Positions 27,640 through 59,939 of a DNA stretch of 64,000 nt are shown piece by piece (positions within the stretch are counted from its first letter, which is position 1; each line of letters starts with the position of its first letter). Origin of the DNA: Lytechinus pictus (taxonomy: Eukaryota); NCBI RefSeq assembly GCF_037042905.1, contig NC_087250.1, positions 11,286,001-11,350,000 on the forward strand, in the 5' to 3' direction. The position numbers were made by a program, and so were the translations under genes. The notes below the pieces were generated by a model, which ran no database searches, had not been told where the DNA came from, and was given only the letters and a program-made list of their open reading frames with translations.

Positions 27640-28498
27640 CTAAACAATCAATAAGATATTTTGGAGCCACTGCATGGAGGCACTGATAAGTTACTTAAAC
27701 ATTACACTGGACTCGGAGCCAATGTAGTAATTTTATATAGGTGTGATAGGTGTGATGTGGGAATGTTTTTTTTAGTACGGGTGACTAGTCGTGCTGCAGA
27801 GTTTTGAATTACTTGTAATTTGTTAATTTGGGAATCGGGCATCCTATAGAGTAAACTACTGCAGTAATCTAAATGACACATTACAAGAGCCTAGACAAGC
27901 TGCTTGGTAGTCTTTGCATCTAAGAATTGACGAACTCTACCAAGTTTACATGGAGCAAAAGATGCTGATTTACATTTTGCAGAAACAAACTTGTTAATGA
28001 CCATATTTTCATCAAATATCACACCCAGGTTTCTGGCTGTATATGTGGGCATAATTGATGATGTATCAAACTTAACAGCTGGAAGTTTCATACTTCTGCG
28101 AAAATGAGATGTCAGATGTAAAATCTCTGTTTTCTGATCATTCAATTTCAGACCATTTGCTGTGGACCACTGTTTGATCTCCCTTACACATTTTTCTACT
28201 TGGGAGATTGCATCATCAATGTTACGTGGTTTAAAAGAAGCATATACTTGCGTGTCATCAGCATAACAAATCCCAGATAATCCATTACACGCTATCACAT
28301 CATGTAGAGGAGATGAGAACATGGTAAATAACAGCGGACCTACCACTGAACCTTGGGGTATGCCTATACAAGGCTTGTGAACTGAAGATTCTAACCCGTT
28401 TATTACTACTCTCTGTTTTCTTTGAGTCAAATATGATTCAAACCACTTATAAGCAAGGCCCGTAATGCCGAACCTCACTTTCAACCTCTGCAATAATA
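27640..28498 (-). pseudogene. LINE A, RT core (C-terminal half)
   Basis: ORF 27891-28544 contains GIPQGSVVGPLLF, YADDTQ, LKLNDQKTE and ARNLGVIFD. Downstream frames show DYCSS, LQVIQNSAARLV and LHWL. Confidence 0.92.
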
Positions 28499-28644
28499 AA
28501 GCAATATTGACTGGCCTGGGGACGATACGACATATATCGCCCAAACTAGATTTATATCACCCGAGTCGAAGACGAGGGTGATATAAATCTAGTGAGGGCG
28601 ATATATGTCCTTTTGCCCCCAGGCCAGTCAATATTGCTATTATT
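28492..28644. repeat. ~150-bp terminal hairpin of the Crypton element
   Basis: gcaatattgactggcctgggg...tagatttatatcaccc, loop gagtcgaagacga, gggtgatataaatcta...ccccaggccagtcaatattgc. Confidence 0.92.
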
Positions 28645-29663: not shown

Positions 29664-32354
29664 ATGACCATGGCACTGACCAGCTTAGTGACCGCTGGTG
29701 TCATCCTACTGTTATGTGACACAACTGTATCGAGTACTTCACATACATATGATTATGTAGCGAATGAGCATATACCTAGGCACAATATATGGAAATCTAA
29801 TGGCAAATACTGCGGCAAACACTCGTTTTATTACCCTAACTCGGTTGCCACGTTCCAAACACTTCTTCTACAAGCAGGAGATATAAGTCCTAACCCAGGT
29901 CCTAATGAAAATGATAGACAACTTGAATATTACCAATCACAAACCGGAAGAATCTCACAACCCGATTCAGACTATAAATATATATATTCTCGAGAGGAGC
30001 TATATAATCTAAACCCTCTTCATCGTTACTCGGGCTGCAAGCAAAGGCTTTCGCGGCCAATTTGGGAAACCATTAATAGTCTCGGTATTGGCAACACAAA
30101 GAAAACTAGACGAGGAAAAGGGGGAAGGGCTGTCAGACCATTGCCTGTACATGCATCTACAAACTCTCCTGATGATGATTCTAACATTGTTGGACGCCCT
30201 CTAGGATCTGCAGAGATTGCCAATTACAACTCCAATATGTGCCTGAAATGTCGGAAATCAATCCACCTAAATCAGAAGAGTATCACCTGTGTGGGCTGCA
30301 AATCTCTGTGGCACCTGAAGTGCACCAATGTACCACTCTCAAGGTATGACGACGGATCCACTAATTCTGGGAATTGGGAATGCTTCAGATGTGACCACCA
30401 ATCTGATGAAGACCAGCAATACAACCAGGATAGATGTCAACGTGAATATCCAATTAAAATTTCTACTAAAGGACTCAAGATTGCTCACATTAATATTCAT
30501 AGTCTCCTAGCTAAACATGACCATCTTAAAGAGAAATTAGTCCACCGGCCATTTGATGTCTTTACTGTATCAGAAACTTTGTTAGACGGTAGTGTAGTTG
30601 AAGCGGAGATACATCTGAATGGATTTACTATTGAGAGAGCTGATAGAAACCGTCATGGTGGAGGGGTAGCTGTGTATGTTTCGAATGAACTGGTCTATAC
30701 TCGCAGATTAGATTTAGAAATTGAAGGTATTGAGTCGTTGTGGGTAGAAGTTATATTGACAAACTCAACTCATATTCTTATAGGGACGTTCTACCGACCC
30801 CCGAGTTCAAAGGTCGAGTATCAAATGTTAATTGGTCAGTCAATCACCAGAGCAACAAGTGAACAAAAAGAGTTATACATTCTTGGTGATTTTAATTGGG
30901 ATATGTACTGTAGAGACTCTAAGTTTGTTAAACAGCTATGCAACCAGAATTACCTGAAGCAAATGATTAATTTCCCAACTAGGATTACAGAAACTAGCAC
31001 AAGTCTGATTGATCTGATCTTGACAAATACCCCCCAAAATGTATGTGAAAGTAAAGTACTCTCTGAAGGATTGAGTGACCATAGTCTGGTTTATGTAGTT
31101 CGGAAAATGTTCAAACCTAAAATACCACCAAAAATAGTACAGTTCAGATCTTACAAGAAGTTTAAAGAAGCTGATTTTATTAATGATCTTAGAAGTGCTG
31201 ACTTGAACTACTACCTGGGCAACCCAGATTTCCATGTAGCTTGGAATTCATGGAAATCTGGCTTCCTTAAAGTATGCGAAAAGCATGCACCGTGTATAAC
31301 TAGGAGAGTCAGGGGTGAAAAGACTCCATGGGTTACAGAAGAATTCATTGACCTGTCAAGAAATCGAGACAGACTGAAACTGAAGGCAGAACAAAGTAGG
31401 TCATCTGCAGATTGGAAACAGTATCGTTCAGTTAGAAATCATGTCAACAACCTGCGCCAAACACTAAAGAAAGGCTATTACCAGAGTAGTATCTTAGAAA
31501 ACAGAAACAACTCTGCCAAACTATGGAAAGTATTGAAAACCTTGACAACATGTGATACTAAATTTGCCACAGACCAGCTCATTGTAAATGGAGATCAAGT
31601 GTCTGACACCCTTGACATGGCCAATGAATTCAACACATACTTTGTATCTGTAGGTGCCAGTTTGGCTTTAAATTTTACCACAGGGGTAGAATGTAGTATT
31701 GACGAGTTACTTACCTGTATAACTAAGCCTACCCCTGGTACTAAATTTGTCTTTGAACAGTTTGTGGAACAAAACGTATCAAATATCATGAAGATGCTGC
31801 AAACATCCAAAGCAAAGGGATTGGATGGTCTTGATACTGTGCTTCTAAAAGCAGCCTCTCCATTGATTTGTACTCACCTCACTTCACTCTTTAATCGCTC
31901 TCTAGATTCTGGATTTATCCCCGATGAATGGAAACATGCTAAAGTAACTCCCATTCACAAGGGAGGTGAGAAACATGACCCTAATAACTATAGACCTATA
32001 TCTGTCATCCCTGTGGTTATGAAAATATTCGAAAGACTAGTCCATACCCAGGTTCAAGATTACTTTTTGGAACATAATTTATTTGCTAGTGAACAGTCTG
32101 GATTTCGGAAGAACCACTCAACAAGCACAGTACTTACCTATTTGAGTGATCACCTGTACAAGCAAATGGATCAGGGTCGACTAACGGGAGTTGTGTTTTT
32201 AGACCTCAAGAAGGCATTTGACTCAGTCGACCATGATCTATTGCTTCACAAACTTACCATGTATGGAATTCTTGGAACAGAGTATAATTGGTTTGAAAAC
32301 TACCTGAAACATCGTTCACAGTGTACTTCTGTAAAAGATCTTCCTCTGATTTGA
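29664..32354 (+). CDS. LINE D polyprotein: hydrophobic leader, 2A-like motif, PHD finger, apurinic-like endonuclease, N-terminal RT
   Basis: GDISPNPGP at aa 72-80; C4HC3 PHD at aa 193-243; APE motifs HINIHSL, VSET, GGGVA, FYRPP, LGDFN, IDLI, SDH; RT motifs NYRPIS, QSGFR, FLDLKKAFDSVDH. Truncated by a frameshift. Confidence 0.92.
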   Translation: MTMALTSLVTAGVILLLCDTTVSSTSHTYDYVANEHIPRHNIWKSNGKYCGKHSFYYPNSVATFQTLLLQAGDISPNPGPNENDRQLEYYQSQTGRISQPDSDYKYIYSREELYNLNPLHRYSGCKQRLSRPIWETINSLGIGNTKKTRRGKGGRAVRPLPVHASTNSPDDDSNIVGRPLGSAEIANYNSNMCLKCRKSIHLNQKSITCVGCKSLWHLKCTNVPLSRYDDGSTNSGNWECFRCDHQSDEDQQYNQDRCQREYPIKISTKGLKIAHINIHSLLAKHDHLKEKLVHRPFDVFTVSETLLDGSVVEAEIHLNGFTIERADRNRHGGGVAVYVSNELVYTRRLDLEIEGIESLWVEVILTNSTHILIGTFYRPPSSKVEYQMLIGQSITRATSEQKELYILGDFNWDMYCRDSKFVKQLCNQNYLKQMINFPTRITETSTSLIDLILTNTPQNVCESKVLSEGLSDHSLVYVVRKMFKPKIPPKIVQFRSYKKFKEADFINDLRSADLNYYLGNPDFHVAWNSWKSGFLKVCEKHAPCITRRVRGEKTPWVTEEFIDLSRNRDRLKLKAEQSRSSADWKQYRSVRNHVNNLRQTLKKGYYQSSILENRNNSAKLWKVLKTLTTCDTKFATDQLIVNGDQVSDTLDMANEFNTYFVSVGASLALNFTTGVECSIDELLTCITKPTPGTKFVFEQFVEQNVSNIMKMLQTSKAKGLDGLDTVLLKAASPLICTHLTSLFNRSLDSGFIPDEWKHAKVTPIHKGGEKHDPNNYRPISVIPVVMKIFERLVHTQVQDYFLEHNLFASEQSGFRKNHSTSTVLTYLSDHLYKQMDQGRLTGVVFLDLKKAFDSVDHDLLLHKLTMYGILGTEYNWFENYLKHRSQCTSVKDLPLI

Positions 32355-32373
32355 AAAAAAAGTACAAACAGGA

Positions 32374-33283
32374 GTGCCTCAAGGCTCAATCTTGGGGCCT
32401 CTCCTGTTCACTATAATGGTGAATGACATGCCCAATGTACTTAAGAAATGTAAGATCATGCTCTATGCTGATGATACTGCATTAATGTACAGTGCTAAAT
32501 GCACTGAAGAAATTGAAACAGAAATCAATGCTGATCTTCAGAGAATAAGTCAATGGCTAATATTAAATCGACTTACATTAAACCCTGAAAAGTCGAAATT
32601 CATGTTATTTGGTACCTCAAACAAACTAAAAAAATGCAAATCCCTTAAATGTGCAAGTTGATAATCATGCCCTTGAAAGAGTTTCAAATTTTAAACACCT
32701 GGGCACGTGGTTGGACGAGTCCCTCACCTGGCAAAAACAAGTTGATGAGATGAGCAAAAAGATTGGGTCACGTATTGCCTTACTAAGTAGACTAAGAAAG
32801 TACTTAACTATCGATAGTGCCAAACTCCTAGCTAATGTATTGATAACACCTCATTTTGACTACTGCAGTCCTTCCTGGGCAAACTGTTCACAATACGTAA
32901 AGAATGTTCTCATAGCCCAGCATAAGAAAATGGCAAGACTTGTCCTTAGATGCAATTGTATGACACCTACTGTTGAGGTATTGTCACAACTGAAATGGGT
33001 AAACATTGAAGAAAGATGGAAATTCAACAAATGTAAATTAATGTATAATGCCCTGAATGGAGAGGGTCCTAAATATATTTGTGATATGTTTACTAAAAGT
33101 AATAGTGTCCACACTCACAGTACGAGGGGTGCCACCTCACAAGGCCTGTTGGTGCCTATGGTCAAAACACAGATGGGGAAAAAAGCTTTTCTCATGAAGG
33201 GTCACTCTTGTGGAACGGACTTCCTTCAGCTCTTAAAAATGCAGCAACCAAAGAAGCATTCACCACCTTATACTGGAGATTAG
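32374..33283 (+). pseudogene. LINE D RT C-terminal portion (frameshifted pieces)
   Basis: PQGSILGPLLF, YADDT, LNPEKS, FKHLG and FDYCS in two ORFs (32374-32661, 32651-33283). Confidence 0.9.
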
Positions 33284-45788: not shown

Positions 45789-46132
45789 CTTGAGATTGCG
45801 AAATACTCTGTTTACGAATACAACGCCAGCTACGCCCGGCCCGCGCCCGCTGCTCAAAATTATTTTACGTACAAAACCTATGCACCAGCAAGAATCGCCT
45901 GCGGCGGGATTCGGGTAACAAAAATTCGGAGAAAATTTAAGAATGCCCGGATGTTAGCGCTGCCTTTTATTGCCCGCTACATTTCCACGCATTTTCTCAT
46001 TGACTTTCTTGAGCGGTCAATAAATTGGGCCCGTGGATAAACAAATTGAATTTTATTGACCGGCCATTTGATCCCAGGATTAAGCAGGCAACAATGTTTT
46101 AAAGTTGCCCTGCTCAGATGTCTGATACGGTT

Positions 46133-46434
46133 AATAATACATCATGTTTAATTGTATCGAATGCTGAAGAAATATCGAGCAGTACAAGAATGGTTTCATT
46201 TCCCTTGTCTAAGGAAGAGTCGATGTCGTTTGAAACTTTCAACAGAGCTGTTTCACAACTATGAAATGGGCGATATGCAGACTAAATTGGAGACTACAGA
46301 TCACTATCTGATAGATAATTCTGAATCTGTAGCACTGCAGCTCTTTTAATGATTTTACCTAGAAATGCTAGGTTTGCAACAGGTCGATAATTCTTCAGCT
46401 CCTCTTGGCGAATTTAGGGCTCTTGAGAAGAGGG
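46133..46434 (-). pseudogene. LINE A, RT N-terminal segment between Crypton and Gypsy
   Basis: Reads KNYRPVANLAFLGKII...SAYRPFHSCETALLKVSNDI...LVLLDISSAFDTIKHDV with internal stops. Confidence 0.88.
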
Positions 46435-46588
46435 TGTTTCGATATCAAAATTGATATCTAAGCACTTCATACACCTCCCGCAACATGGATACCAAGCCTG
46501 TTGATTGACCTGCCTAGCTGGCCTGTATAATAAAACTGTATATAAGTTCACTACCAAAGTCTCCACCAGAGTCCTTTGTATTGGATCA
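46435..46588 (+). repeat. 5' LTR
   Basis: Direct repeat of 52088-52241 with 5 mismatches by eye. Contains tataataaa. Confidence 0.95.
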
Positions 46589-46600
46589 TGGTGGCAGCTG
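46589..46600 (+). promoter_or_regulatory. Primer binding site, probably tRNA-Leu type
   Basis: tggtggcagc immediately after the 5' LTR. Confidence 0.7.
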
Positions 46601-47238
46601 AAACCAGTGATCGCTTTTGAAATGACAAGGATCAAGTAACCAGCTACTGTTGGGAAGTAAACTGCATGTCTTTTTACCGAAATTCGCATGCTTCATAACC
46701 TACTAACCACTGGTACGGGTGCCCGCTCGCACCGGCTATCGCATCGCTACTGTACGTGAATACCGTACTGTGCATACTCAATGCACTGTCACAGCAAACC
46801 AAATCGTGTTGTCAGAAGGAGCGAGATGCCAACGGTGACTGGAAACAATCAAATATAGCCTGAGTAAGTTATAACTGTGTTCAATCACTGGCACAGAGGT
46901 CTGCATCAGAAGATCAACATACACTAAAAGTTGATAAAACCTAAATAACTTAATTTTCTGGACTGGAGTGTGAACAACGAAATAATATTTTCCTAATATT
47001 AATTGTAAATCTGGAGTGTGAGAAGTGAGTGGGAGTGACCAGCATTTTCACTGCATGAAACACCTGATGACATTCACACAGGGCTGTGAGTGCGTTACAG
47101 GTATCATCACCAGTCGACCTGTGACTGTAAGGAGCGTTCACACGTGGATATAATCAGACATTAATATCTACACTCATTTATTTAAATACCTAATACGTAC
47201 AGGGAACATACACAATTAGTAGTGGAAAATATCCAGAA

Positions 47239-48300
47239 ATGAACTGGGAGGCAACAGACCTACCCGAAGAATTCCAGCTTTTCAGACAAAGAATGGAACT
47301 GATTCTAGCAGACCAAGACATAACTGATCAGAGAAAAGTGTCTATGAAAATCAAGATTGCTGTTGGCAATGAAGGCTTGCGTCGAATCAATGCATCGGGG
47401 CTATCAGAGACCGATAAAGAAAAACCGCAAGAGCTATGGAGACTATTAGAGGCACAGTTAAAGGTCAATATCAATTTTCGCATACACCGCTTAGAGCTAA
47501 TGCGGTACAGGCAGAAAACAGATGAAACGATCGATGAATTCGTAACCAGGTGTAGGGACAAAGCCAAAAATTGCGATTTCGAGGAAGCTGAGTTAAATGA
47601 GCGAATCATGGAGCCAGTGATTGCGTCAACTCCAAGTCTCGAATTCCAAAAGTCATTGCTAGATCAACCGAAAGGTAACAAGGTCAAACAAATTTTGGTA
47701 GAAGGTCGTAAATACGAGGCAGTCGCTGCGAGCCGACATTAAGGAGCTTTCGATTTGCACGTCGACTAGTGGACTGCGACGAAAGTACGTCATAATAGCC
47801 TGCTTTGTGTTTACGGTATACAGAACCCCTGGAGTAAATCACCACGTGGCTTCAATCAATGGGCAAGGATTTGATTGCTCGTTTACTACGTTTTGAACGA
47901 GCGTGATCTGAGCGAAATCCACGTTCGTCATCATGAAGTTGACGTGTCAGGAATGGCTTGCACATGCTCAGTGTCTTCCAATCATGTGATCGACTGACTT
48001 TGTATACCATCAACACAAAGCAGACTACTATGACGTACTTTCGTCGCAGTCCACTAGTCGACGTGCAAATCGAAAGCTCCCTAATGTCTTGAGACACTAG
48101 ACCCTAAACAGAATATCGATTCGTTCAAGCGTAACCAGGGACGAAAAGCGTGTGGTAACTGCGGACGTTTCCACAAACCTCGTCAATGCCCTGCGTATGA
48201 CGATGAGTGCCGTGCCTGTGGCACCAAGGGCCATTGGGCCAAATTTTGTCATAAATCGAAAAATGATCGTAGTCGTAAACAGAATCGTTGATCAGATGAC
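47239..48300 (+). pseudogene. Gypsy gag with two zinc knuckles, interrupted by a MITE
   Basis: ORF 47239-47742 has RQKTDETIDEFVTRCR. After the MITE the sequence reads CGNCGRFH...CPAYDDECRACGTKGHWAKFC (~48150-48250). Confidence 0.85.
47742..48081. mobile_element. ~340-bp Harbinger-like MITE in gag
   Basis: ~80-bp TIRs ggagctttcgatttgcacgtcgactagtggactgcgacgaaagtacgtcata / tatgacgtactttcgtcgcagtccactagtcgacgtgcaaatcgaaagctccc, with TTA/TAA flanks. Confidence 0.88.
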
Positions 48301-48312
48301 CGAAGATCCGAC

Positions 48313-51300
48313 ATGGTATCTGATGATCGGAAACCAAAACAAAACAAATCACGATCAAAGTCGAAAAGTGGAAAGAGTAAACCTATAAGCCAAATGGACA
48401 TAACACATGATACTACCACAGATCATGATTATTATCAATCTACAGATAGTCCATTCAACGTAGCACAATTCGACACCATACACACTAGTGGACCACACAC
48501 AGTTGTAAATCCAGAAGGTACTGTAGCATTTGCTAACATTGACATAATATGCCCACAGAGAGTAGGTCAATATACGCTTTACCTAAAAGTGGACTCGGGG
48601 GCAAGTGCTAACACTATCACAGTACGTACCGCCAAAGCAATATACGGTCGAAACAGGGAATCAGTAGTGAAGCAAACAACAATCAAACTTATAGCTTACG
48701 GAGAGATACCAATTCCATGTAAGGGTACACTAGACATAAAGTTTAGATACAAGAGTACAAAATGGTCAGCACAGACATTCTATGTAGCAGATGTCAATGG
48801 TCCAGCGATCCTAGGGATGTTAGGTTGCACTGACCTTGGAATTATCACAATTCACTCAATGCACGACAAAACACCTACATCCATTCCTCAACCTAAACAA
48901 ACACCTATTACAAGTGTAAGGAATCTCAAACAAGAATATCTTAATCAGTTTGACGCTATTGGTAGTTTCCAGGGGAAGGCAATGCTTCATGTCAAGGACG
49001 ATGCTAAACCTACCATAGACGCACCCCGCAAGTGCAGCGTACACTTGAAAGACAAAATCAAGGCGAAACTGGACAATATGGAGCAGCAAAGAGTCATCAG
49101 AAAAATCGAGTACCACACTGATTGGTGCAGCTCCATGACCACTGTTGTGAAGAAAGATGGATCCATCAGGATTTGTCTTGACCCCAGGAGGTTAAATGAT
49201 GCCTTGAAGAGATGCCCGCACAAGGTACCAACCTTGGGAGAGGTCCAACCTGTCTTCGCAGGAGCCCAGTACTTCTCTAAGTTAGACGCGAAGGCTGGTT
49301 ACTTGTCGGTTCACCTATCAGAGGAGTGCCAGGATCTCACCACATTCCGTACACCATTTGGAAGGTACTGCTTCCAAAGACTATCATTTGGGTTATGTAC
49401 TAGTCAGGATATCTTCCAGCAGCGTATGGATAGGATATTCCAAAATGTGCCAGGCTGCATATGCATCGCAGATGACATAGCGATCGTAGGAAGAACTGAG
49501 GAGGAACACGATAGGAATCTCTACTTACTCATGGAGACGGCAAAGCAAGAAGGCTTAGTGTTCAACAGCTCCAAGTGTACTATCAAGAAGGAAGCCATCA
49601 ACTTCTTTGGTTCCAAGAACACTAGATCAGGTATCTACCCAGATCCCAGCAAGGTAGAAGCTATCACATCAATGCCATCACCCAAGGACAAGAAAGATGT
49701 TCAGAGAAGCCTAGGATTATTCACATACCTAGCAGCATACATTCCTAACTTCTCAGAGAAGTCAGCGCCACTTCGAGAACTTCTACAGAAGGAAGTACCA
49801 TTCATTTGGGACGATGATCATGAACATTCCTTGAACAGCCCGAAAAGTACAGTATCATCAGGTGCATGTCTACAATTCTATGACCCAAAGAAAGAGACAA
49901 CTCTTGACGTAGATGCATCGATGAAAGGGCTAGGAACATGCCTGCTCCAGCAAGGCAAACCATTTGCATCCAAAAGTCTTTCCACTGCACAGTCTTTCCA
50001 CTGCACAGTCCAACTATTCCAACATAGAGAGGGAAACCTTAGCCGTAGTGTTTGGTATCAACCGCTTCCATAAATATCTATTCGGGAAGGAATTCACCGT
50101 CATAACACATCACAGACCATTGGAGATGATATGGAAGAAACCTCTTAGAAGTGCACCTCCACGTCTACAGAGATTGCTTATTAAAGTCCAAGGATACCGA
50201 AGTCAAGTCAAGTATCGACCAAGAAAAGACATGATTATTTCCGATACATTGAGCCGACTTCATAATCCCAAGGAAGCACGCGATGTTCCGCTAGATGTCA
50301 GAGTGGAATCCATCTGCTCTGAAGCCGAAGATTCGCACCAGATTGACTTGATATACTTTGGACAACACAAGAGAACAGAGCTTCAGAGAGAAACAGCTAA
50401 TGACCATGTTCTCAGATCACTATGGCAAATAGTCACTCAGGGATGGCCTGAGACCATCCAAGAATTGCCGACATCCCTTCGTCAATTTTGGTCTTACAGA
50501 GATGAAATCGGAGTATCACACGGAGTACTCTTCAAGGGAAGTCAAGTCATCATACTGAAGACACTAAGGAATGACATCCTTAGACAGCTTCACCTAGGAC
50601 ACATGGGAATCGTGAGACAGTGTTCTGGCCAAAAATCAACAAGGACATTGATCAGTTGATAAAGCAGTGTGAAACATGCCAGAAACACCAAGCAAGACAG
50701 CAGAAAGAGCCACTGCATCCCCATGATGTACCACCAGCACCATGGACCAGACTAGGAACCGACTTGTTCATGCTCAATAGACAAGAGTATCTACTCGTTA
50801 CTGATTACTATTCCAAGTATCCGATCATTGCTATGCTAACCAATACATCCAGTGCAGCTATAGCAAGAGAGATGACGGGAATCTTCAGTCTGTTCGGTCC
50901 ACCATAAGAGATTGTGTCCGACAACGGTCCACAATTTTTCGGGAAACCATTCCAAGACATGTGCAAGAAGTGGAATATCAAGCACATCACTTCTTCACCG
51001 CACTATCCAAAATCCAACAGATTAGCTGAGAGAATTGTTCGTACAATCAAAAATATTTTGACGCAGTGTTCTCAAACTAGCCAAGACAGTCAACTAGCCA
51101 TGCTGCACCTGAGAGCAACACCAGTTGACAATAATCTGAGATCACCAGCAGAGATGTTGTTTGGAACACCAATCCGAACCACATTGCCAAGTCACTATCT
51201 TTCGAGAGATTCTGCTGCCACCGAGTTTCTCTTGAATAGGCAATCACAATGAAGGAAGTGCATGATCGACATGCAAGTTCTGATTTGCCACCACTGCATG

Positions 51301-51644
51301 TAGGACAGCCAGTGAGGGTTCTGCATCCAAGAGACCACACTTGGATACCAGCCAAGGTATCCAAGGTCTGTGAAGAACCTCGATCCTACGAAGTTTCAAC
51401 GCCGAACGGAGGAATCTTGAGGAGAAATAGATCTCACTTGAGGGAAGTTCCATCCACCAACCCAACTCCGAAGCGTGTGAGGTTCGACGAAGACCACTCC
51501 ACAGAAACTCAACCAGAGGAAGACAACGTCCAACAATCACCAATGTCCAACTCTAACGCTAATCAATCTCAACAGACATACTCACAAACTACGAGATCTG
51601 GACGCACTATTCGCAAACCAGAGAAATCCATGTTTGAAGATTGA
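48313..51644 (+). pseudogene. Gypsy pol (protease, RT, RNase H, integrase), fragmented
   Basis: KVDSGAS (protease); IRICLDPRRLN, FSKLDAKAG, CIADD (RT); DVDAS, YSNIERE (RNase H); HLGH..CETC, GTDLF, SDNGPQF (integrase). Several frameshifts and stops. Confidence 0.93.
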
Positions 51645-52074
51645 ACATTATGAGCACTCTAAATTCTCAAACAAAGAAGAGAAAGACAAGAAAGAAGAAC
51701 AACACTGAAGACATTAGTGTAATTTAAAAGTTTATTATATGCATGTATAATCATTGTACATTATTTTTTTGTATGTCAAGATAGTGTTTACGAAATTATC
51801 AGAAAGACACTAAAGCCAAAACTTATTGTTTGGAAATATTGATTTCAGGATCAATCCGGTTATCCAAATTATTTTCAGTTTTGCACAAGATTGAAGTTAT
51901 GTAAAATTGAAAATGCACACAGTTTATCACAAATTGATATCATTCTCACGAAACAAACAATTTCTATATTATTATCTGATATATCATAACTAAGCCAAAT
52001 TCCCAAAATTTGCAGACTACCAAAAGTATTGTTTGAAAACAATATCATTGAAATTTGAAATTCTGAATCCTATC

Positions 52075-52087
52075 AGAAGAAGGGGGA
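52075..52087 (+). promoter_or_regulatory. Polypurine tract
   Basis: agaagaaggggga abutting the 3' LTR. Confidence 0.85.
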
Positions 52088-52241
52088 TGGTACGATATCA
52101 GTATTGATATCTAAGCACTTCATACACCTCCCGCAACATGGATACCAAGCCCGTTGATTGACCTGCCTAGCTGGCCTGTATAATAAAACTGTATATAAGT
52201 TCACTACCAAAGTCTCCACCAGAGTCCTTTGTATTGGATCA
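52088..52241 (+). repeat. 3' LTR
   Basis: Direct repeat of 46435-46588. Confidence 0.95.
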
Positions 52242-54554
52242 GAGGGAGCACTGTAGCATTTTTAAGACTTTCTGGAAATAACCCTTCACTAAATGATTGG
52301 TTAATAATTCTTGTTATAAAAGGAACAAGTTCAGGAGTACACTTCTTCACAAGAGATGTAGGTATCGGGTCTAATTTACAAGTTGCTGAAGTTGACTTCT
52401 TGATAATAGTCTAAACTTCATTGAAATTCATTTCCTTAAATCTAGAGAAACCACAATTGCTACAAGGGTATTCACGAGTTGCAACCCGTTCAACAGACAC
52501 ATTAGACAAATCATCAGAAATTTGTTTTACTTTAGTGTCAAAGAAATTTGGAAAACGTTCTGGCAATAAAATACAATCAGGGTTAGATTTAGGAAGAGTT
52601 AGATCAGGCCTAGACCTAAATAGTTTCTCAAACTTCTGATACAGTTCGCGGGAATTGCAGTTCTCAAATTGTCTATGATGATATTCTTTCTTTCTTGTAG
52701 TAAGCACTTTCTTATAATCACATGAAGCCTTCATAAAGATTTGATGATGGATCTCTAATCTGATTGAGCGCCATTTCCGTTCTATTTGTCTGAGTTCCTG
52801 CTTCTTTTTACGAATATCTTCATTCAACCATGGTGCATGGGTACGAGGGAGGACTAAGCGAGTGAGCAAAGGTGCATGTTCGTCAAGCAACTCATGAAGC
52901 ACGGTGTCATAGAGCTGTACCTGCTGTTCCAGATCTTCGATGGAAGATGTCAACAGTTTTGATTGACGAATGCTCTCGCGAAACTCATCAAGATTCAAGT
53001 TGTTAAGTTTCCTGAATTTAACTTCAGTTCTTCGTTGCTTGGGCTTTTCAATCATCAGAGAACAAAGAATTGCTGAGTGATCAGAAGGCAGATAGCTTGT
53101 CACATCCAGCTCAGAGATGAGATTTGTAGTTTCACGTGACAGCAGAAGATCCAGCGTATGTCCACTCCTGTGCGTTGGTAAAGTGACATGTTGTTTCAAA
53201 TTGACTGAACTAATGATTTCAAGAAACCGGGCTGCATCTTTATTAAGAGGATTATCAACATGAAAGTTAAAATCCCCAGCCAACATTAGCTGGTTAGGAT
53301 AAACAGCTATCCGCTCAAGAAATAAAGAGAACTCATCAAAGAAGATCTGAGATGTTAAACAACCTTTTCCAGTTCTTTGAGGTCGATAGACCACCACTAG
53401 GCGGAGAAATGGCCTTCCCTTTACACCAATAAGAAGGTCAATATATTCAAACGATGTATACTGTTTCATGTCGTAACTATGGACTTTAAAAGTTTTTTTT
53501 CTCGATGCAAACTCCTACTCCACCACCTGATCGACCTTTGCGTGGAGTATGATGGAAGTCATAGTTCTGAAGACACCCGAAAATATCAGTTATAGTTCTA
53601 TCATCTTTAAAGTTTCCTGAGAGCCATGTCTCCGTTAATGCAAGGATATTGATGTGGTTACTGATGACAAATTCACATATTGAAGAAGATTTAGAGTTTA
53701 CAGACCTTGCATTCCAAAGGGCAAAACGAAAGGTTGAAGAATTATCAAAAGTGGCGATGTAACGATCTGGAGAAGAGGAATGATATTCCAAAGAATAGGA
53801 GGCCTGATTACGGGTAACACGCTTCTTTCCACCTTTTCTCCCTCACCTTGTTGGACGACGTCTCTTTGATATGCCGAGTTTATTATTGATAGCCCATGTT
53901 GTAGCATCAAGGCGGCGGTGTAAATTGGGAATGGCGAGGAGTGTTTTCCTATCATATTTAATTCTTTTTGTCGATACATTCTGTATAGCTGAAGCATGAA
54001 GATAACCATCGCTGGATGTACTCTCATTGGTCTGTTGTGAAGGTCCTGGGTTGGTTTGAACATCACCACACTGCACAATGTTGAATGTAGAATCAGAGTT
54101 ACTGTAATAGAGAACCATTTTCCCAATAAACTTTACTTTGACAATGAAGTAATCAGAATGCTTCTCGAGGCACACAAAAGACTGAAGACTTCATAGGCTT
54201 TCTTCTCTGTCTGCCTGGCTGGAGCAGAAGGGGATGACCAAAGCAACAATGAACAAGAAATGAATAGAAGACATTGTCCAACTAGTAGGATAGCTGTGGA
54301 CAATGAAGCTATTGTGAAAAGTACTGCAATGTCCATGCAATGGAGTCTACTCAGTTTCAGAATCCAATCAAACTGATATCCAGGTTTCCAGAGATATATC
54401 TAGAATGAAGCAATTTTACAGCTGTAAATCAGTCCAGTGGAATCAGTAATAATTCCAAAGAAGTACAGTAATATCAATTTCCAGCAAAATATATGAAAGT
54501 TGAAGAGAGGTAGCCAAGCAGCTGTTCGGTGCTTGACCAGTGTTGAAAGAAGAG
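52242..54554 (-). mobile_element. LINE A, 5' part (UTR, hydrophobic leader, 2A-like motif, endonuclease, linker)
   Basis: GDVQTNPGP; WNARSV, LTETW, GGGVG, VYRP, AGDFN, TLDL, SDH; LDPIPT...KNATVLP, joining 46429 (LLKSP) when the LTR element is removed. The 5' boundary is approximate. Confidence 0.9.
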
Positions 54555-55670
54555 TTTGTTTCAGTAGAAGTTGATCGATTGTTAAGGAATTTTTTATATA
54601 ATGTATTTTTCTTTCTGATGTGTCTTAATAATTCAGGAGTAATCCATGGCTTACGTATAAAAGTTTTCTTCTTCTTTTGTAAAATCAAAGGCAAATTCTT
54701 ATCATACAAAATGTTAAACTTATTCAAAGATATACCAAAGGCAGTATTTACTTCATTGCAAGAATACACTGATGACCAATCAGTATTATAAAGTTCTTTT
54801 TGTAAATGTTTCACACCAGCATCAGTAATTCTACGTCTATATGTGTTATTGGTCCTTTGCTGATTCTTTAATAGCAAGTCAGTTATATTTAATATAAGAA
54901 ATACAGGTAAATGATCAGTTATATCAACAGAAAAAATACCACTTTCCACATTTATTGTAAAGGCGTTTAAGAAAATATTATCAATAAGAGATGCTGTATT
55001 TAAAGTGATACGGGTGGGTTGATTAATGACAGGATGTAGACCAAAAGAAGAGTTCGTATTTAAAAACGAATTTGTGTTATCTTCTTTTTCTTTCATCATA
55101 TCAATATTAAAATCCCCTGTCATGATAATCTCTCTCTTATCATTACCAAGTATGCTAAGAGTTTGAGAGTAAAAATCAATGAATGATATAACATCAGTAC
55201 TTGGCTTTCTATAAAAAACACCTATTGTCAAATTATCCTTTTCATGTCTAAATAAGTCAATAAATAAGTATTGACATGTTTCTGTATCTGCAGAGAGAAA
55301 AATATCATTTCTTACAGAGACATTTATATCAGTTTTAATAAAAAGACAAACGCCACCACCTCTGCCTGTTATTCTATCAAAGTTTACAAAATCATAACCA
55401 TCTAAGTGAAATGGAATTAAAGGTGTGCCGGATATCCATGTTTCTGATATAGCTATTACCGATAACCTATTTTCTAGAGTAGACAAGAAATCTGAAATGA
55501 TATCAAAGTTTTTATGAAGACTACGCGCATTGAAATGTATCAGACTGAATTCATTATTACTTTGAAAATGTACATTGAACTCTTACGGTGTATAATAATT
55601 AGAAGTACATGCATTTGATAAACAGTTTACATTAAGTTCTGGATCAAGATCAACAAGAGGATTACTCATA
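54555..55670 (-). pseudogene. LINE B ORF2 N-terminus (endonuclease)
   Basis: HFNARSL, ISETW, GGGVC, FYRKP, TGDFN, PTRIT, IDNI, TDH and KPWIT. The endonuclease call is firm; assignment to the same element as 17652-19190 is inferred. Confidence 0.85.
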
Positions 55671-55873: not shown

Positions 55874-58525
55874 ATTTTTATTTTATTTTATTTTTTTATT
55901 TATTTCTGATATTTTGACAGGGTAGCCCATTCACCAATAAGTAGTGGTCTTCCATGAGGCCCTGAATAACAATAAACATATTTACAAAATGCATAACGTA
56001 TGTACAGAATGTTACATCATTAAGATTCACATTAGGATTTGAATGTAAAACGAAACATTAACAAACTTAGCAGCAAACAAAACGCAGACGGGCACTCGTT
56101 TGACGTATAATAAAATATCAATAAATCAAATTAATTAAGAAGGACATCTTGAAAATACTGATAATATACACCAAATCATCAAGGTCATGCTAACACAAAA
56201 TAAGCACAACAGTGGATGTTCCGCAAGTTATTTATAAATTACAAGTTCTTTTAAACATTCTCTTAAATGAAATGACAGAAGGAGCTGTTCTAATTGAATT
56301 ATCAAGCTTATTCCATTTAAATATTGAAGATACGATTGGACTACACTTATAACAATCAGTGCGAAACTTGGGCACGCGTAAATATCAACTGTCTCTCTGT
56401 CTGGTATGATGTTCATGTACATCATTTGGATTGGTTAAGTTTACCTGAAGGTAAGAAGGTGCTAAATTATGGACACATTTAAATATCATCAAAACGCGAC
56501 TGAGCTCAAATCGTTTGTCTAGTGTCATCCATTTAAGACTTGTGAACAAATCAGCCGACGGTGTGTCGTATGTCTTGTTCAATATAATTCTTGCAGCCCT
56601 CTTCTGAATTTTTTGCAGCTTAATTGTATGGGATTGAAATCTATTCGACCATACAGCAGAACAGTAATCAAATCTTGGCAACACTAAACTGTTATAAAGC
56701 AACTTTAAGGACTGCACAGTCATAGAACTTTTCGCTCTCTTTATTATGCCAATGCTTTTCTGAGTAAGTTTACATACATTTTCTATTTGTTTTGACCATT
56801 TCAGTTCTTCATCTATCAAAACTCCTAAGCATTTGGTGAATTGAACTCTATTTATCAAATCACCGTTTAACAAAATCGTGAAAGAATCTATTTTCCTGAG
56901 ATTAGCACGAGAACCTATTATCATGACACAAGTTTTTTCAGTGTTGAGGACGAGCTGATTATCTTTAATCCATGCCATGACCTTGTTTAATGCAACAGTT
57001 AATTTTTCTTCCAAAACTGTCGCATCATTTGCACTGACGGTAAGTGTCGTGTCGTCAGCGTACATATCTATAATACCTTCATGAATACATTCAGGTAAAC
57101 TATTAACATATATTGAAAATAAAAGGGGACCTAGAATTGACCCTTGTGGCACGCCTAATTTGACGATTGAAGGGTGCGATTTGGCTCCTTTAAATTGTGT
57201 CACTTGTTGTCGATCAAATAAATATGATTTGAACCAAGTGATAGTCCTCTTACTACAACCAATGCAAGTTAATTTCTTTAAAAGCAGCTCATGGTCCACG
57301 GTATCAAAGGCCTTCCGAAGATCTATGAACGCAACTCCAGAAATTAAATTGTTATCAATGTTTAACGACCACTGATTTACAAGTTTTGCAAGGGCAGTAG
57401 TTGTTGAATGCATAGGCCGAAAACCAGATTGATTTGGGTGTAATAAATTATTCACGTCCAAGAATTCACTTAGCTGTTGGTGAACAGCCCTTTCTAAAAT
57501 TTTACTCACGATTGGTAATATAGAAATTGGACGGTAATTATTCAACGAAGACATATCACCAGATTTAAATATTGGTACTACCCGAGCCTTTTTTCCATTC
57601 ACGAGGAACAACTCCAGTAGTAAGGGATTTGTTAATAATATCACAAAGGGACTCTGCGATAACATTTTTTGTCATCTTTAAAAGTTTGCAGCTGACATGA
57701 TCTTCCCCAGTTGATTTATCTTTACTCAGATTATCAATCTGTTTCAAAACAAAATCTCTAGTAATCAACTCTAGCTCAAATTGAGAGTGAATTGAACCAA
57801 CATTTGTATCATCTTCTACTTGAACTCTCTGTTGAGACGCATCCCTTTGCAGGTCCTTAGTAATATTAGTAGCATTTGAAATGAAAAATTCATTAAATGC
57901 TTCAGCAATATTTGCATTGCCCGACACATCTGTTCCATCTACGTTTATGGTGTTGGGAGAAATAGGTAATGACTTGGGCACAAGTTCTCTCAAACATCTC
58001 CACATTTTCTTACTATTGTTTTGATTTTGTGAAATCTGGTTAGCATTATATTCTTTTTTACTTTTTCTCATGAGATGAATAACTTTATTTTTCAGAAATT
58101 TGTATGTGTCCCAAATATCATTTTTTTTGTTAACTTTAGCTGTTTTTAGAACCTTATCACGTTCCTTCATTAGCTTGACGACCTCGTCAGATATCCAAGG
58201 ACAAGCTTTTTTTCTTATCCGCTTTTTACAAAAGGGAATGTGCCTGTTGATTACATCATTGAAAAAAGTCAACCATACATCCCAAGCAACATCAACATCA
58301 TCTATATCTTTTACGACCTGCCAAGGAATATTTCTCAATTCACTATAAAATGTTTCCTCATCAAGATTTTAAAATGAACGAAATTCTGCAAATTCGGAAT
58401 CTTTATACATCTTAGCACTGAAATCGCGAATTGTATACACCAAATAATGATCACTTATACTAGTTTCAAATATTCCCCATTCACTGTATAGTTCTTTGTC
58501 TGATACAAATATCAAATCAATTAAA
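55874..58525 (-). mobile_element. LINE C, 5'-truncated CR1/L2-group element inserted in the LINE B inter-ORF spacer
   Basis: IDLIF..SDH, CPWIS, NYRPIS, FIDLRKAFDTVDH, PQGSILGP, YADDT. The 3' end cagggcc...gggctaccctg plus (TAAAA)n tail at 55874-55965 resembles the LINE D tail. Confidence 0.92.
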
Positions 58526-58774
58526 CACAATACAATAACACAATACAATACGAAAATATGATTGAACAGAATAAATAACAAGAATAAAATGTTCAATCAG
58601 TACAAATAACAATAATGATAACAGTTTAAATCAATTAATTCAAAATGAGGAATATATATCAGTAACTGTTATACAAGAAAAATGGTAAAAGTTCACTTTA
58701 ACTTTATAAATAAAGAGAAAGTTCCTTCCAGGAGATTTAGTAGTTTGTTTTGCTTTCACTTTCTATTATTGTTC

Positions 58775-59480
58775 TCATGGTTTTCTCAGATCATCTTCAT
58801 TTCTTATGACCTTTTTCCTATGTTCATTTCCTTTCAGTAGAGCGATTATTCTAACGTCATTGCTCCAGGCAGCTTCAACATCGGGATGACTTTTCGTGGA
58901 AGTCAGGAGTTTTTGATTCGTAGTTGTAAGATCTTCAACTATCGCTCTTTTCTGTCCTTTCAATTTTCTTCTGTTTGCTATCACTTCTTGTCGTTTTCAA
59001 TAGGACTTCAATTTCACTATGATTCCGCGTGGTGATTTAAGTGCCGATCCGGCTTCTGAAGCTTGCTCTGGTGGACCAACTCGGTGGCTTCTTTCTATGT
59101 CTTCAAGCTTGAGGTCGACCTTGAGGGTATCCTTGGCAATCTTCATCAATATATTGTCTGTACTTTCACCTTTTCTCTCAGGACATCCGAAAAATCGAAG
59201 ACAGTTCCGACGTGAATATTGTTCTTGTGTGTTGATGCTGTGGCTGATCCCTTTCATCTTGTCTGTCTGCTCATTTACTCTTTTCTTTAGGCCTTTTATT
59301 TCCTTTTCTTTGGTAACTATGCTGATCTGTAAGTCCATTATCTCTGATACCTGATTTTCAATAGTTTCTTCCAGGACTCTAATCTTCTTGTTAATTGAAT
59401 CATGAAACAATGCAATAAAGCCTTTGTTCTGTAGGAGATCCTTAATGACTTCTTCTGTTAGAGTTGAGTTTTCCTTTGAA
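58775..59480 (-). pseudogene. LINE ORF1 protein (coiled coil plus RRM-like domain), probably LINE B
   Basis: Coiled coil, then EQYSRRNCLRFFG.PE, IERSHRVG, PRGIIVKL, IVEDLT and AWS. One in-frame stop at ~58997. Confidence 0.88.
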
Positions 59481-59881
59481 CGTGCTCTAGTGGTCACATG
59501 AGAGGTTGATATGCTGGACAATAGGAAGCTTATCTTGAGTAGATTGGAAAGTCTAAAGCAGCACAATGGAGTTAAGGCCCAGGTCATTGAATGTTGCACT
59601 TCTAGAGTTCACTGAACTGTGATAATCTGTTCAAAATCAACTTGAAGTAAAGCTGACATCGAAAGTAGTATATGGGACCTCAGAGAAAATGATGACAAGA
59701 ACTCAAATCCTTTAGATATAAATATCACTTTAAATACATATCATATGATACCATGTTGATTATCAAATGTCTCCTGGAGGGATGTATTCCAACACAATTT
59801 ACAACATTGTAAAAAAAGCAATTCAAATTCAGAGAGAAATTGGTGTAAAATATCAGAGAAAAACCTTGATGTGTGCGCTCC

Positions 59882-59883
<2 letters not shown>

Positions 59884-59934
<51 letters not shown>

Positions 59935-59938
59935 CATA
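59884..59938. repeat. (CT)n(AT)n microsatellite at the LINE B 5' end / satellite junction
   Basis: Directly visible. Confidence 0.9.
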
Positions 59939-59939
59939 T

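What the first reader, a model, noticed from the sequence alone, without database searches (positions are those of the whole stretch)
53820..53968. LINE A carries RIKYDRKTLL, a close mimic of the 4E-BP motif
Seen: KRIKYDRKTLLAI (Y codon 53954-53956), followed by RRLDATTWAINNKLGISKRRRPTR*GRKGG. Known: human 4E-BP1 reads RIIYDRKFLM. LINE A differs from LINE D in endonuclease and RT sequence and has no PHD finger, so this second occurrence suggests a selected module rather than chance.
Basis: partly seen in the sequence, partly recalled or inferred. Interest (0 to 1): 0.8.

Follow-up and report, generated by a model that had tools for sequence, protein, structure and literature searches.

The report
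eIF4G-like motif module in LINE leaders
A dead LINE retrotransposon copy preserves a short protein module, shared by many echinoderm LINE families, whose sequence closely resembles the part of eIF4G and 4E-BP that grips the cap-binding factor eIF4E, although binding has not been tested.

Summary
KRIKYDRKTLLAI is on the minus strand (53968-53930, Tyr codon 53956-53954). It is in the endonuclease frame, with one TGA between them.

It is not a chance motif. It lies in a conserved N-terminal module: hydrophobic leader, 2A-like GD[VI]xxNPGP, a 13-37 residue polar spacer, RIxY[DS]RxxLLxL, a variable linker, VWxxIxxLGI, T[HR]RGxRGG, then APE endonuclease and RT.

- A profile of the module found 305 database proteins.
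- In 127 near-complete rows, Tyr and Leu(+5) are each kept in 114. 79 rows fit YxxxxLΦ.
- A 91-sequence profile searched against all PDB chains ranked the eIF4E-binding fragment of Drosophila eIF4G first (E 0.025, ungapped over 33 residues).
- All named relatives are echinoderm "uncharacterized proteins".

Against the eIF4E reading:
- 48 of 127 rows break the consensus.
- Single-sequence searches and a 5-sequence profile do not recover eIF4G or 4E-BP.
- No eIF4E sequence was available, so no complex could be modelled.

The 2A peptide is already known (PMC3708506). My five literature searches found no description of the downstream module. I put eIF4E binding at about 0.4. This copy itself is a broken fossil.

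The parts
54218..54274 (-). Start Met and hydrophobic, signal-peptide-like leader of LINE A (MSSIHFLFIVALVIPFCSS)
   Evidence: It aligns with residue 1 of the intact relative P0001.
54191..54193 (-). First in-frame TGA stop of this decayed copy
54041..54124 (-). 2A-like recoding peptide with its upstream context (GKMVLYYSNSDSTFNIVQCGDVQTNPGP; Q at the position where the consensus has E)
   Evidence: The motif class is described in PMC3708506.
53969..54040 (-). Polar spacer of variable sequence between 2A and the motif, predicted disordered
   Evidence: AF2 pLDDT is 58 for residues 1-20. Across the family the spacer is 13-37 residues, median 24, and rich in S/T/N/D/H.
53930..53968 (-). KRIKYDRKTLLAI, a stretch that looks like a canonical eIF4E-binding motif (Tyr codon 53956-53954)
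   Evidence: Family conservation. AF2 places a short helix at RKTLL.
53906..53929 (-). Linker PNLHRRLD containing the conserved R-L
   Evidence: The Tyr-to-Trp offset varies from 19 to 27 in 87 of 89 rows.
53870..53905 (-). Second conserved element ATTWAINNKLGI (family consensus VWxxIxxLGI), a predicted helix and a candidate non-canonical, lateral-surface motif
   Evidence: The conserved Val column aligns with V641 of Drosophila eIF4G.
53819..53869 (-). Basic Arg/Gly tract SKRRRPTR*GRKGGKKR (family consensus T[HR]RGxRGG[RK][RK]), interrupted here by TGA at 53845-53843
52234..53731 (-). APE endonuclease, linker and start of the RT of LINE A, with a frameshift near 53499 and a further stop at 52413-52411
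46132..46398 (-). RT fragment that continues LINE A (P0001 residues 680-768, 70% identity), separated from the rest by a nested LTR-element insertion
27753..28499 (-). RT fragment that continues LINE A (P0001 residues 766-1014, 63% identity), separated by about 17.6 kb of nested insertions that include LINE D
29814..30146 (+). The same module in LINE D: 2A-like GDISPNPGP, YKYIYSREELYNL (29973-30011, Tyr codon 29985-29987), RLSRPIWETINSLGI and TRRGKGGR, followed by a PHD finger, APE and RT

Best explanation
LINE A is a dead, insertion-riddled copy of a single-ORF, 2A-bearing APE-type LINE. The flagged peptide is part of a portable N-terminal protein module that many echinoderm LINE families share. 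The module starts after the 2A-like NPGP site and a disordered spacer. It consists of a short amphipathic helix (consensus RIxY[DS]RxxLLxL), a variable loop, a second hydrophobic helix (VWxxIxxLGI) and an Arg/Gly-rich basic tract, all placed ahead of the endonuclease.

Most likely mechanism, which is inferred and not shown: the two hydrophobic elements act as a bipartite eIF4E-binding region of the eIF4G/4E-BP type. The canonical helix would sit on the dorsal surface of eIF4E and the second element on its lateral surface. The RG tract would hold RNA. Because the module is the first part of the enzyme to leave the ribosome, it could seize the cap-bound eIF4E of its own mRNA and displace eIF4G. 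That would switch the template from translation to RNP assembly, giving cis-preference to elements that lack ORF1.

Shown here: the module exists, it is conserved as protein, and it resembles eIF4E-binding regions. Inferred: binding and everything that follows from it.
For: 1. Conservation. The 5-sequence profile A1 found 305 proteins at E<=1e-3 and 81 at E<=1e-10 among 1.84 billion representatives. In 127 rows that cover at least 70 of 102 profile positions, Tyr is kept in 114, Leu(+5) in 114, Trp in 100, and the L of LGI in 116.

2. Motif fit. YxxxxL-phi is present at the aligned position in 79 of 127 rows, Yx[RK]xxL-phi in 57, and Y[DSTNE][RK]xxL[LMFIV] in 49. In 34,475 residues of the same proteins outside the module, these patterns occur 30, 2 and 0 times.

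3. Unbiased PDB search. The 91-sequence profile A2, run against 177,635 distinct PDB sequences, ranked the Drosophila eIF4G eIF4E-binding fragments first and second (4uec_B E 0.025; 5t47_B E 0.031). The alignment is ungapped over 33 residues, 'sritYdrdeLlslnsskkqrlpsdvwn' against 'GKKQYDREQLLQLREVKASRIQPEVKN'. The next hit has E 0.26. The module's conserved Val column (Y+20 in the A2 profile alignment) aligns with eIF4G V641 (Tyr621+20). The review PMC8558276 lists V641 as a lateral-surface contact.

4. Known determinants. The extended consensus YX(R/K)X2L-phi-X2(R/K) comes from PMC6061780. The phage-selected eIF4E binder KKRYSRDQLVAL has Kd 77 nM against about 500 nM for eIF4G1 KKRYDREFLLGF. 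Ser or Thr at Y+1 improves affinity about fivefold (PMC3477164). Family members such as RIQYSRDGLLNL and PITYSRDALLNL look like that optimum.

5. Accessibility. AF2 predicts a disordered spacer (pLDDT 58), then an extended Tyr followed by a short helix (residues 32-36), then a second helix (47-56). Neither structural search found a globular fold match.

6. Autonomy. The module is better conserved between LINE D and P0001 than APE-RT is (32% against 24%). LINE D carries a PHD finger between the module and APE, so a fixed docking onto APE is unlikely.
Against: No binding data exist, and no eIF4E sequence was available for modelling a complex.

The PDB hit is marginal (17.9 bits, about 3 bits above noise). 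It is also partly circular, because the family was flagged for this resemblance in the first place. Human eIF4G and the 4E-BPs did not reach E<=10 with the same profile.

LINE A and LINE D searched as single sequences gave 0 PDB hits at E<=10. The 5-sequence profile A1 did not recover eIF4G; its only hit was GatF at E 0.68. Scanned one by one against Pfam, 1 of 91 members touched eIF4G1-like_eIF4E-bd (E 0.083) and 1 of 91 touched eIF_4EBP (E 0.14). Neither is significant, and LINE A itself matched nothing.

48 of 127 rows lack YxxxxL-phi. One subgroup reads YD[VA]xTLH yet keeps VW..I..LGI and the RG tract. The function may therefore not depend on eIF4E-type contacts.

LINE A has Pro, not Arg or Lys, at Y+9.

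AF2 is fairly confident for residues 31-60 (block means 83-89). This could mean a self-contained helical hairpin with Tyr and Leu in its own core.

Motif-based prediction has a poor record. In PMC3763552, 6 of 14 candidate motifs were expressed, and only Angel1 is reported as retained on eIF4E.
Confidence: 0.4

Rival explanations
1. The module is a small nucleic-acid-binding unit. A helical hairpin plus the Arg/Gly-rich tract would bind the element's own RNA or target DNA, replacing the missing ORF1 protein. Tyr and Leu would be core residues of the hairpin, and the likeness to eIF4E binders would be coincidental.
For: The RG tract T[HR]RGxRGG[RK][RK] is as well conserved as the motif (R93 in 108 of 127 rows, G94 in 96). 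AF2 predicts a fairly confident two-helix unit. The conserved hydrophobic residues are spaced as in an amphipathic hairpin. Most 2A-bearing LINEs lack ORF1 (PMC3708506). 48 of 127 rows break the eIF4E consensus but keep the rest of the module.
Against: No match to any known nucleic-acid-binding fold or family was found. The loop between the two helices varies by 8 or more residues. This reading does not explain why the best PDB sequence match is an eIF4E-binding region, nor the preference for Asp/Ser at Y+1 and Arg at Y+2.
Confidence: 0.25
2. The module is a docking site for another host factor, or for another part of the LINE machinery. For example it could be a self-association element, or a helix that binds a different helix-binding groove.
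For: The module is short, conserved, flanked by disorder and portable between families, as protein-interaction modules usually are. The variable phi position (H, R, S or T in many rows) would suit a partner other than eIF4E.
Against: No candidate partner emerges from any search.
Confidence: 0.2
3. The conservation is not due to protein function. It would be a by-product of nucleotide-level constraints in the 5' region (an internal promoter or RNA structure), or the resemblance in LINE A is pure chance.
For: The 5' ends of LINEs carry internal promoters (general knowledge, also stated in PMC3894237). Generic YxxxxL-phi is common, at 228 matches in the window's six frames.
Against: The pattern is kept across representatives that were clustered at 50% identity, with amino-acid-class substitutions (D/S/N/T at Y+1, L/I/F at Y+8), indels that preserve the frame, and one open frame into APE. 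The specific pattern is absent from 34,475 background residues.
Confidence: 0.03

Closest known systems
eIF4E-binding region of metazoan eIF4G (Drosophila eIF4G in PDB 4UEC and 5T47; human eIF4G1 peptide KKRYDREFLLGF)
   Same: It is the top hit of the module profile in the PDB. The two share the pattern Y-D-R-x-x-L-L-x-L, a following R-[IL], and a hydrophobic residue at Y+20 that contacts the lateral surface of eIF4E in eIF4G. Both have a two-part layout with a flexible linker.
   Different: The similarity is marginal (E 0.025) and spans only 33 residues. The module has Trp and LGI, which eIF4G lacks. It sits in a retrotransposon ORF ahead of an endonuclease. Common descent or capture from host eIF4G was not tested, and binding was not tested.
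4E-BP1/2/3 and Thor (Pfam eIF_4EBP, PF05456)
   Same: That wording is recalled. It is consistent with Met at peptide position 10 and Glu at position 11 in PMC3477164. Both have Tyr in an extended stretch followed by a short helix.
   Different: No significant Pfam match was found (1 of 91 members at E 0.14). No 4E-BP chain appeared in the PDB profile search at E<=10. The module lacks the TP/SP phosphorylation sites and the PGVTS-type non-canonical loop. These last two features are recalled, apart from PGVTS, which is quoted.
2A-bearing APE-type non-LTR retrotransposons (Odon et al. 2013, PMC3708506; Rex1, L2, L2A, Crack, CR1 and Ingi clades)
   Same: A GD[VI]xxNPGP motif lies 40-80 residues from the N-terminus of the APE-RT ORF. 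Most are single-ORF elements, and sea urchin elements are prominent among them. LINE A and LINE D fit this description.
   Different: According to its legend, Figure 2 of the paper shows only 20 residues downstream of 2A. The sections I read (Results part 1 and the discussion of 2A functions) do not describe the Tyr motif, the VW..LGI element or the RG tract. The clade of LINE A and LINE D was not determined here.
Angel1, an endonuclease/exonuclease/phosphatase-fold protein with a functional YxxxxL-phi motif (PMC3763552)
   Same: It is a protein of the EEP fold family that acquired a canonical eIF4E-binding motif and binds eIF4E in a Tyr-dependent way.
   Different: The Angel1 motif lies in the C-terminal domain of a host deadenylase-family protein. 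It is not in a disordered N-terminal leader, there is no second element or RG tract, and no homology is implied.

Membership tests
eIF4E-interacting proteins with a canonical 4E-binding motif (eIF4G / 4E-BP class) | Canonical motif YX4L-phi | tested here: met
   LINE A has YDRKTLL and LINE D has YSREELY. 79 of 127 family rows fit at the aligned position and 48 do not.
eIF4E-interacting proteins with a canonical 4E-binding motif (eIF4G / 4E-BP class) | Extended metazoan consensus YX(R/K)X2L-phi-X2(R/K) (PMC6061780) | tested here: inconclusive
   LINE A has Arg at +2 but Pro at +9. In the family, 57 of 127 rows have R/K at +2 together with L-phi. Position +9 is N in 41 rows, R in 20, K in 18 and Q in 10.
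eIF4E-interacting proteins with a canonical 4E-binding motif (eIF4G / 4E-BP class) | The motif lies in an accessible, disordered region and forms a short helix after the Tyr | tested here: met
   This is an AF2 prediction only. The spacer has pLDDT 58, there is a helix at residues 32-36 directly after Y30-D31, and no globular fold match was found.
eIF4E-interacting proteins with a canonical 4E-binding motif (eIF4G / 4E-BP class) | A non-canonical hydrophobic motif downstream that contacts the lateral surface of eIF4E | tested here: inconclusive
   The candidate is VWxxIxxLGI, starting around Y+19/+20 (the offset varies between rows). The Val column aligns with eIF4G V641. No structural test was possible.
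eIF4E-interacting proteins with a canonical 4E-binding motif (eIF4G / 4E-BP class) | Physical, Tyr-dependent binding to eIF4E and competition with eIF4G | not testable with these tools
   No eIF4E sequence could be obtained from a tool, so no complex prediction with eIF4E was run. No experiment was possible.
eIF4E-interacting proteins with a canonical 4E-binding motif (eIF4G / 4E-BP class) | Significant sequence match to Pfam eIF_4EBP (PF05456) or eIF4G1-like_eIF4E-bd (PF21140) | tested here: not met
   1 of 91 members hit each family, at E 0.14 and E 0.083, both far below the curated cut-offs. LINE A itself matched no family.
2A-bearing single-ORF APE-type non-LTR retrotransposons (PMC3708506) | D(V/I)ExNPGP-type motif 40-80 residues from the N-terminus of the APE/RT ORF | tested here: met
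   LINE A has GDVQTNPGP ending 78 residues after the Met (counting the in-frame stop as one position), with Q in place of E. LINE D has GDISPNPGP.
2A-bearing single-ORF APE-type non-LTR retrotransposons (PMC3708506) | APE endonuclease and RT downstream in the same frame | tested here: met
   Pfam finds Exo_endo_phos and RVT_1 in LINE A pieces, in LINE D and in P0001. LINE A is interrupted by stops, a frameshift and insertions.
2A-bearing single-ORF APE-type non-LTR retrotransposons (PMC3708506) | Ribosome-skipping activity of the 2A sequence | not testable with these tools
   Only 18 of 127 family rows have the canonical Glu. The paper reports low activity for Q/D/N at this site and none for non-conservative changes.
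2A-bearing single-ORF APE-type non-LTR retrotransposons (PMC3708506) | Placement in the Rex1, L2, L2A, Crack, CR1 or Ingi clades by RT phylogeny | not tested

The most novel reading that the evidence does not exclude
A large group of ORF1-less LINEs encodes a two-part mimic of the eIF4G/4E-BP eIF4E-binding region, possibly captured from host eIF4G, fused to an RG-rich RNA-binding tract. It sits at the very start of the enzyme, exposed by a 2A skip. The nascent protein would grip the cap-bound eIF4E of its own mRNA, evict eIF4G, stop further translation of that template and commit it to RNP formation and nuclear entry. This would be a physical basis for cis-preference without ORF1p.
Probability: 0.3. 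Interest if true: 0.85.

Novelty: new variant of a known kind. Interest (0 to 1): 0.62.

Why it matters
How LINE proteins find their own mRNA (cis-preference), and how elements without ORF1 manage this, are open questions. A retrotransposon-encoded eIF4E-binding module would be a direct and testable link between the cap-binding machinery and retrotransposition. It would add a mobile-element class to the known eIF4E partners. It would also give a function to the stretch that the well-studied 2A peptide exposes.

Even if eIF4E is not the partner, the work defines a conserved, portable N-terminal module in echinoderm LINEs. The module is found in 305 database proteins, and every named one is annotated only as "uncharacterized". 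Five literature searches and the papers I read turned up no description of it.

Tried and rejected
- **Whole-genome search:** no genome is held for this window, so no family consensus from genomic copies could be examined.
- **Word-index search with P0001 residues 45-165:** it returned only P0001 itself, 1 of 83 candidates.
- **Protein atlas search of the module:** top scores were 0.88, below the level the tool calls meaningful, so it gave no lead.
- **Structural searches of the AF2 model:** Foldseek against the PDB found 0 matches at E<=0.001 (4 at E<=10, all implausible). VIA-align found 0 of 48,161 chains at Z>=2.
- **Complex prediction:** the module was folded as two copies to test self-association. 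The verdict was "no answer", and the alignment was not used by the tool. This counts neither for nor against binding.
- **RNA evidence:** no RNA holder was listed. About 6% of each of two RNA-seq runs was read and no read was laid on 53486-54300. This is no test of expression.
- **Earlier findings of this scan:** three look-ups returned nothing.
- **Literature:** searches found no paper that links an eIF4E-binding motif to a LINE or retrotransposon protein. PMC3894237 contains neither "eIF4E" nor "4E-BP". Supplements of PMC3708506, which hold its alignments, were not opened and could show the module without comment.
- **Intramolecular docking onto APE:** considered and rejected. LINE D has a PHD finger inserted between the module and APE, and the linker lengths differ between families.
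- **Replication factor A hit** (6i52_C, E 0.26) and **GatF hit** (4n0h_F, E 0.68): treated as noise.
Full report
**1. What is in the sequence**

On the minus strand the window reads ...NVSTKRIKYDRKTLLAIPNLHRRLDATTWAINNKLGISKRRRPTR*GRKGGKKRV... The Tyr codon is at 53956-53954 and the stop is TGA at 53845-53843. The frame runs on unchanged into an APE endonuclease (Pfam Exo_endo_phos).

The copy is a fossil:
- A second in-frame TGA lies at 54193-54191.
- There is a frameshift near 53499 and a further stop at 52413-52411.
- The body is split by nested insertions. tblastn with the intact relative P0001 places its residues 1-671 at 54274-52234, residues 680-768 at 46398-46132, and residues 766-1014 at 28499-27753, all on the minus strand.

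**2.

The ORF starts with a hydrophobic, signal-peptide-like leader (MSSIHFLFIVALVIPFCSS, 54274-54218). It is followed by a 2A-like peptide (…YYSNSDSTFNIVQCGDVQTNPGP, 54124-54041). LINE D (29604-33283, plus strand) has the same order. It reads leader, GDISPNPGP, a spacer, YKYIYSREELYNL, RLSRPIWETINSLGI and TRRGKGGR, and then a PHD finger, APE and RT.

2A-like peptides 40-80 residues from the N-terminus of single-ORF APE-type LINEs are known, notably in sea urchin (PMC3708506: abstract, Results part 1 and the discussion of 2A functions read). According to its legend, Figure 2 of that paper shows only 20 residues beyond the 2A site.

**3. Is it more than chance?**

The bare motif is weak evidence. 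Generic YxxxxLΦ occurs 228 times in the window's 127,996 six-frame codons. YDRKxLΦ occurs only once. The real evidence comes from relatives.

- A word-index search with the leader plus the start of APE found 8 proteins, of which 3 have complete N-termini.
- Their modules were aligned with LINE A and LINE D (A1). This profile was run against 1.84 billion representative proteins. It found 305 at E≤1e-3 and 81 at E≤1e-10, and most of the 150 listed hits cover the whole profile.
- I re-aligned the stored hits to the profile offline. In the 127 rows that cover at least 70 of 102 positions, the best-kept residues after the 2A are Tyr (114), Leu at +5 (114), Trp (100), the LGI triplet (116, 91 and 99) and the R-G of the basic tract (108 and 96).
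- The family consensus is RIxY[DS]RxxLLxL[NRK]…RLPxxVWxxIxxLGI…T[HR]RGxRGG.
- At the aligned position, YxxxxLΦ is present in 79 of 127 rows, Yx[RK]xxLΦ in 57, and Y[DSTNE][RK]xxL[LMFIV] in 49. In 34,475 residues of the same proteins outside the module, these patterns occur 30, 2 and 0 times.
- The window holds exactly two copies of the module, in LINE A and LINE D.
- I scanned 20 longer hits against Pfam. In 14 of them the module is followed by APE, and 3 also show RT. Another 3 are unrelated proteins that matched only the 2A part of the profile. The last 3 match no family.
- All named relatives are echinoderm proteins annotated as "uncharacterized": Strongylocentrotus, Lytechinus pictus, L. 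variegatus, Diadema antillarum, Amphiura filiformis and Anneissia japonica.
- LINE D and P0001 share 24% identity over 649 residues of APE-RT but 32% over the 111-residue module.

The module is therefore a selected protein element that moves between LINE families.

**4.

I aligned 91 post-2A modules (A2). These were the 2 from the window plus 89 of the 103 rows printed. Fourteen rows with long insertions were left out by eye, and several of those carry perfect YDRxxLL motifs.

Searched as a profile against all 177,635 distinct PDB chain sequences, A2 returned 20 sequences at E≤10:
- The top two are the eIF4E-binding fragments of Drosophila eIF4G (4uec_B, E 0.025, 17.9 bits; 5t47_B, E 0.031).
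- The next is a replication factor A chain at E 0.26, followed by β-lactamases at about 0.4.
- The eIF4G alignment is ungapped over 33 residues: 'sritYdrdeLlslnsskkqrlpsdvwn' against 'GKKQYDREQLLQLREVKASRIQPEVKN'.

The review PMC8558276 (passages read) gives Tyr621 as the canonical Tyr of Drosophila eIF4G. It gives V641, I646 and L647 as the residues that reach the lateral pocket of eIF4E. V641 is Tyr+20 and aligns with the module's conserved Val, just before the Trp. The resemblance therefore runs from the canonical helix into the region of the non-canonical motif.

Known determinants also fit:
- The extended metazoan consensus is YX(R/K)X2LΦX2(R/K) (PMC6061780, passages).
- A phage-display study gives KKRYSRDQLVAL a Kd of 77 nM, against about 500 nM for eIF4G1 KKRYDREFLLGF. 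It shows that Ser or Thr at Tyr+1 improves binding about fivefold (PMC3477164, passages and section 8).
- The family prefers D/S/N/T at +1 (106 of 127 rows), Arg at +2 (58), L/I/F at +8, and N/R/K/Q at +9.

**5. Structure prediction**

AF2 with A2 gave a mean pLDDT of 74.9 and a pTM of 0.35 for the 66 residues of LINE A:
- a low-confidence spacer (block means of 58);
- an extended Tyr30-Asp31 followed by a short helix at residues 32-36;
- a loop;
- a helix at residues 47-56 (ATTWAINNKL), with block means of 83-89 for residues 31-60.

Neither Foldseek nor VIA-align found any fold match. The Tyr-to-Trp distance ranges from 19 to 27 residues in 87 of 89 rows, so the loop is flexible. These results fit a two-part motif that folds on binding. 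They fit a small free-standing hairpin equally well, and I could not inspect coordinates to tell the two apart.

**6. Results against the eIF4E reading**

- The PDB hit is marginal and partly circular, because the family was flagged for this likeness.
- Human eIF4G and all 4E-BPs stayed above E 10 with the same profile.
- LINE A and LINE D searched as single sequences found nothing in the PDB at E≤10.
- The shallow profile A1 found only GatF at E 0.68.
- Member-by-member Pfam scans touched eIF4G1-like_eIF4E-bd and eIF_4EBP once each in 91 members, at E 0.083 and 0.14. LINE A matched no family.
- 48 of 127 rows break YxxxxLΦ. One subgroup reads YD[VA]xTLH while keeping the second helix and the RG tract.
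- LINE A has Pro at +9.
- Motif-led prediction has a poor record. In PMC3763552 (section read), 6 of 14 conserved candidate motifs were expressed, and only Angel1 is reported as retained on eIF4E.
- No eIF4E sequence could be obtained from any tool, so the obvious complex prediction was not run. A two-copy fold of the module gave no answer.

**7. Most likely mechanism**

*Shown:* a conserved, portable N-terminal module with the parts listed above.

*Inferred, at about 0.4:* the module is a two-part eIF4E-binding region of the eIF4G/4E-BP type joined to an RNA-binding RG tract. It emerges from the ribosome first, after the 2A site and ahead of the enzymes. It could therefore capture the eIF4E on the cap of its own mRNA, displace eIF4G, and turn the template from translation to RNP assembly. 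Elements without ORF1 would benefit most from such a device.

*Rivals:*
- a small RNA- or DNA-binding hairpin plus RG tract that replaces ORF1p (0.25);
- a docking or self-association site for another partner (0.2);
- a nucleotide-level constraint or chance (0.03).

**8. Novelty**

The 2A peptide and the single-ORF layout are known. Five full-text searches and a term search within PMC3894237 found no paper that ties an eIF4E-binding motif to a LINE or retrotransposon protein. The sections I read of PMC3708506 do not describe the downstream module, and I did not open its supplements.

I rate this a new variant of a known kind: a 2A-bearing LINE with an undescribed, eIF4G-like N-terminal module. 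The eIF4E link is unproven.

Noticed in passing
window 46400-52230 (+), ORFs 48085-51644: A Ty3/Gypsy-like LTR retrotransposon lies inside LINE A, between the LINE A pieces that end at 52234 and resume at 46398. It has a CCHC gag knuckle and a long ORF region (48292-51644). That region was read by eye only as protease-RT-RNase H-integrase.
   Followed up: partly
window 56250-59608 (-): A different LINE with a separate ORF1. ORF1 is a coiled coil that hits Fib_alpha/Mod_r-type coiled-coil families. ORF2 has an RT (RVT_1, E 3.7e-40). This LINE lacks the module.
   Followed up: partly
window 54443-55582 (-): A further APE endonuclease fragment from yet another LINE lies directly upstream of LINE A's start. 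It has no module hit.
   Followed up: partly
family alignment, profile position 25 (LINE A 54055-54053; LINE D GDISPNPGP): The Glu of the 2A consensus D(V/I)ExNPGP is present in only 18 of 127 family rows (N 32, H 27, S 20, Q 14, D 9). By the published activity data many of these 2A-like sites should skip weakly or not at all, yet the GD[VI]xPNPGP frame is almost invariant.
   Followed up: partly
window 54218-54274 (-); LINE D 29664-29730 (+); P0001-P0003 N-termini: The peptide upstream of the 2A begins with a signal-peptide-like hydrophobic stretch in every intact relative. This recalls the dual-function 2A-like signal sequences of sea urchin NLR genes (PMC4981915). Its role in a LINE is unexplained.
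   Followed up: no
P0008 (784 aa), N-terminus: This relative has GITYERSELTAV, a second hydrophobic element and KRGLRAGS ahead of APE, but no NPGP. The module therefore also occurs without a 2A site.
   Followed up: no
window 59750-59960: Compound microsatellite of (TA/TATA)n and (GA)n repeats. It translates as YIYIYI/RERERE runs.
   Followed up: no
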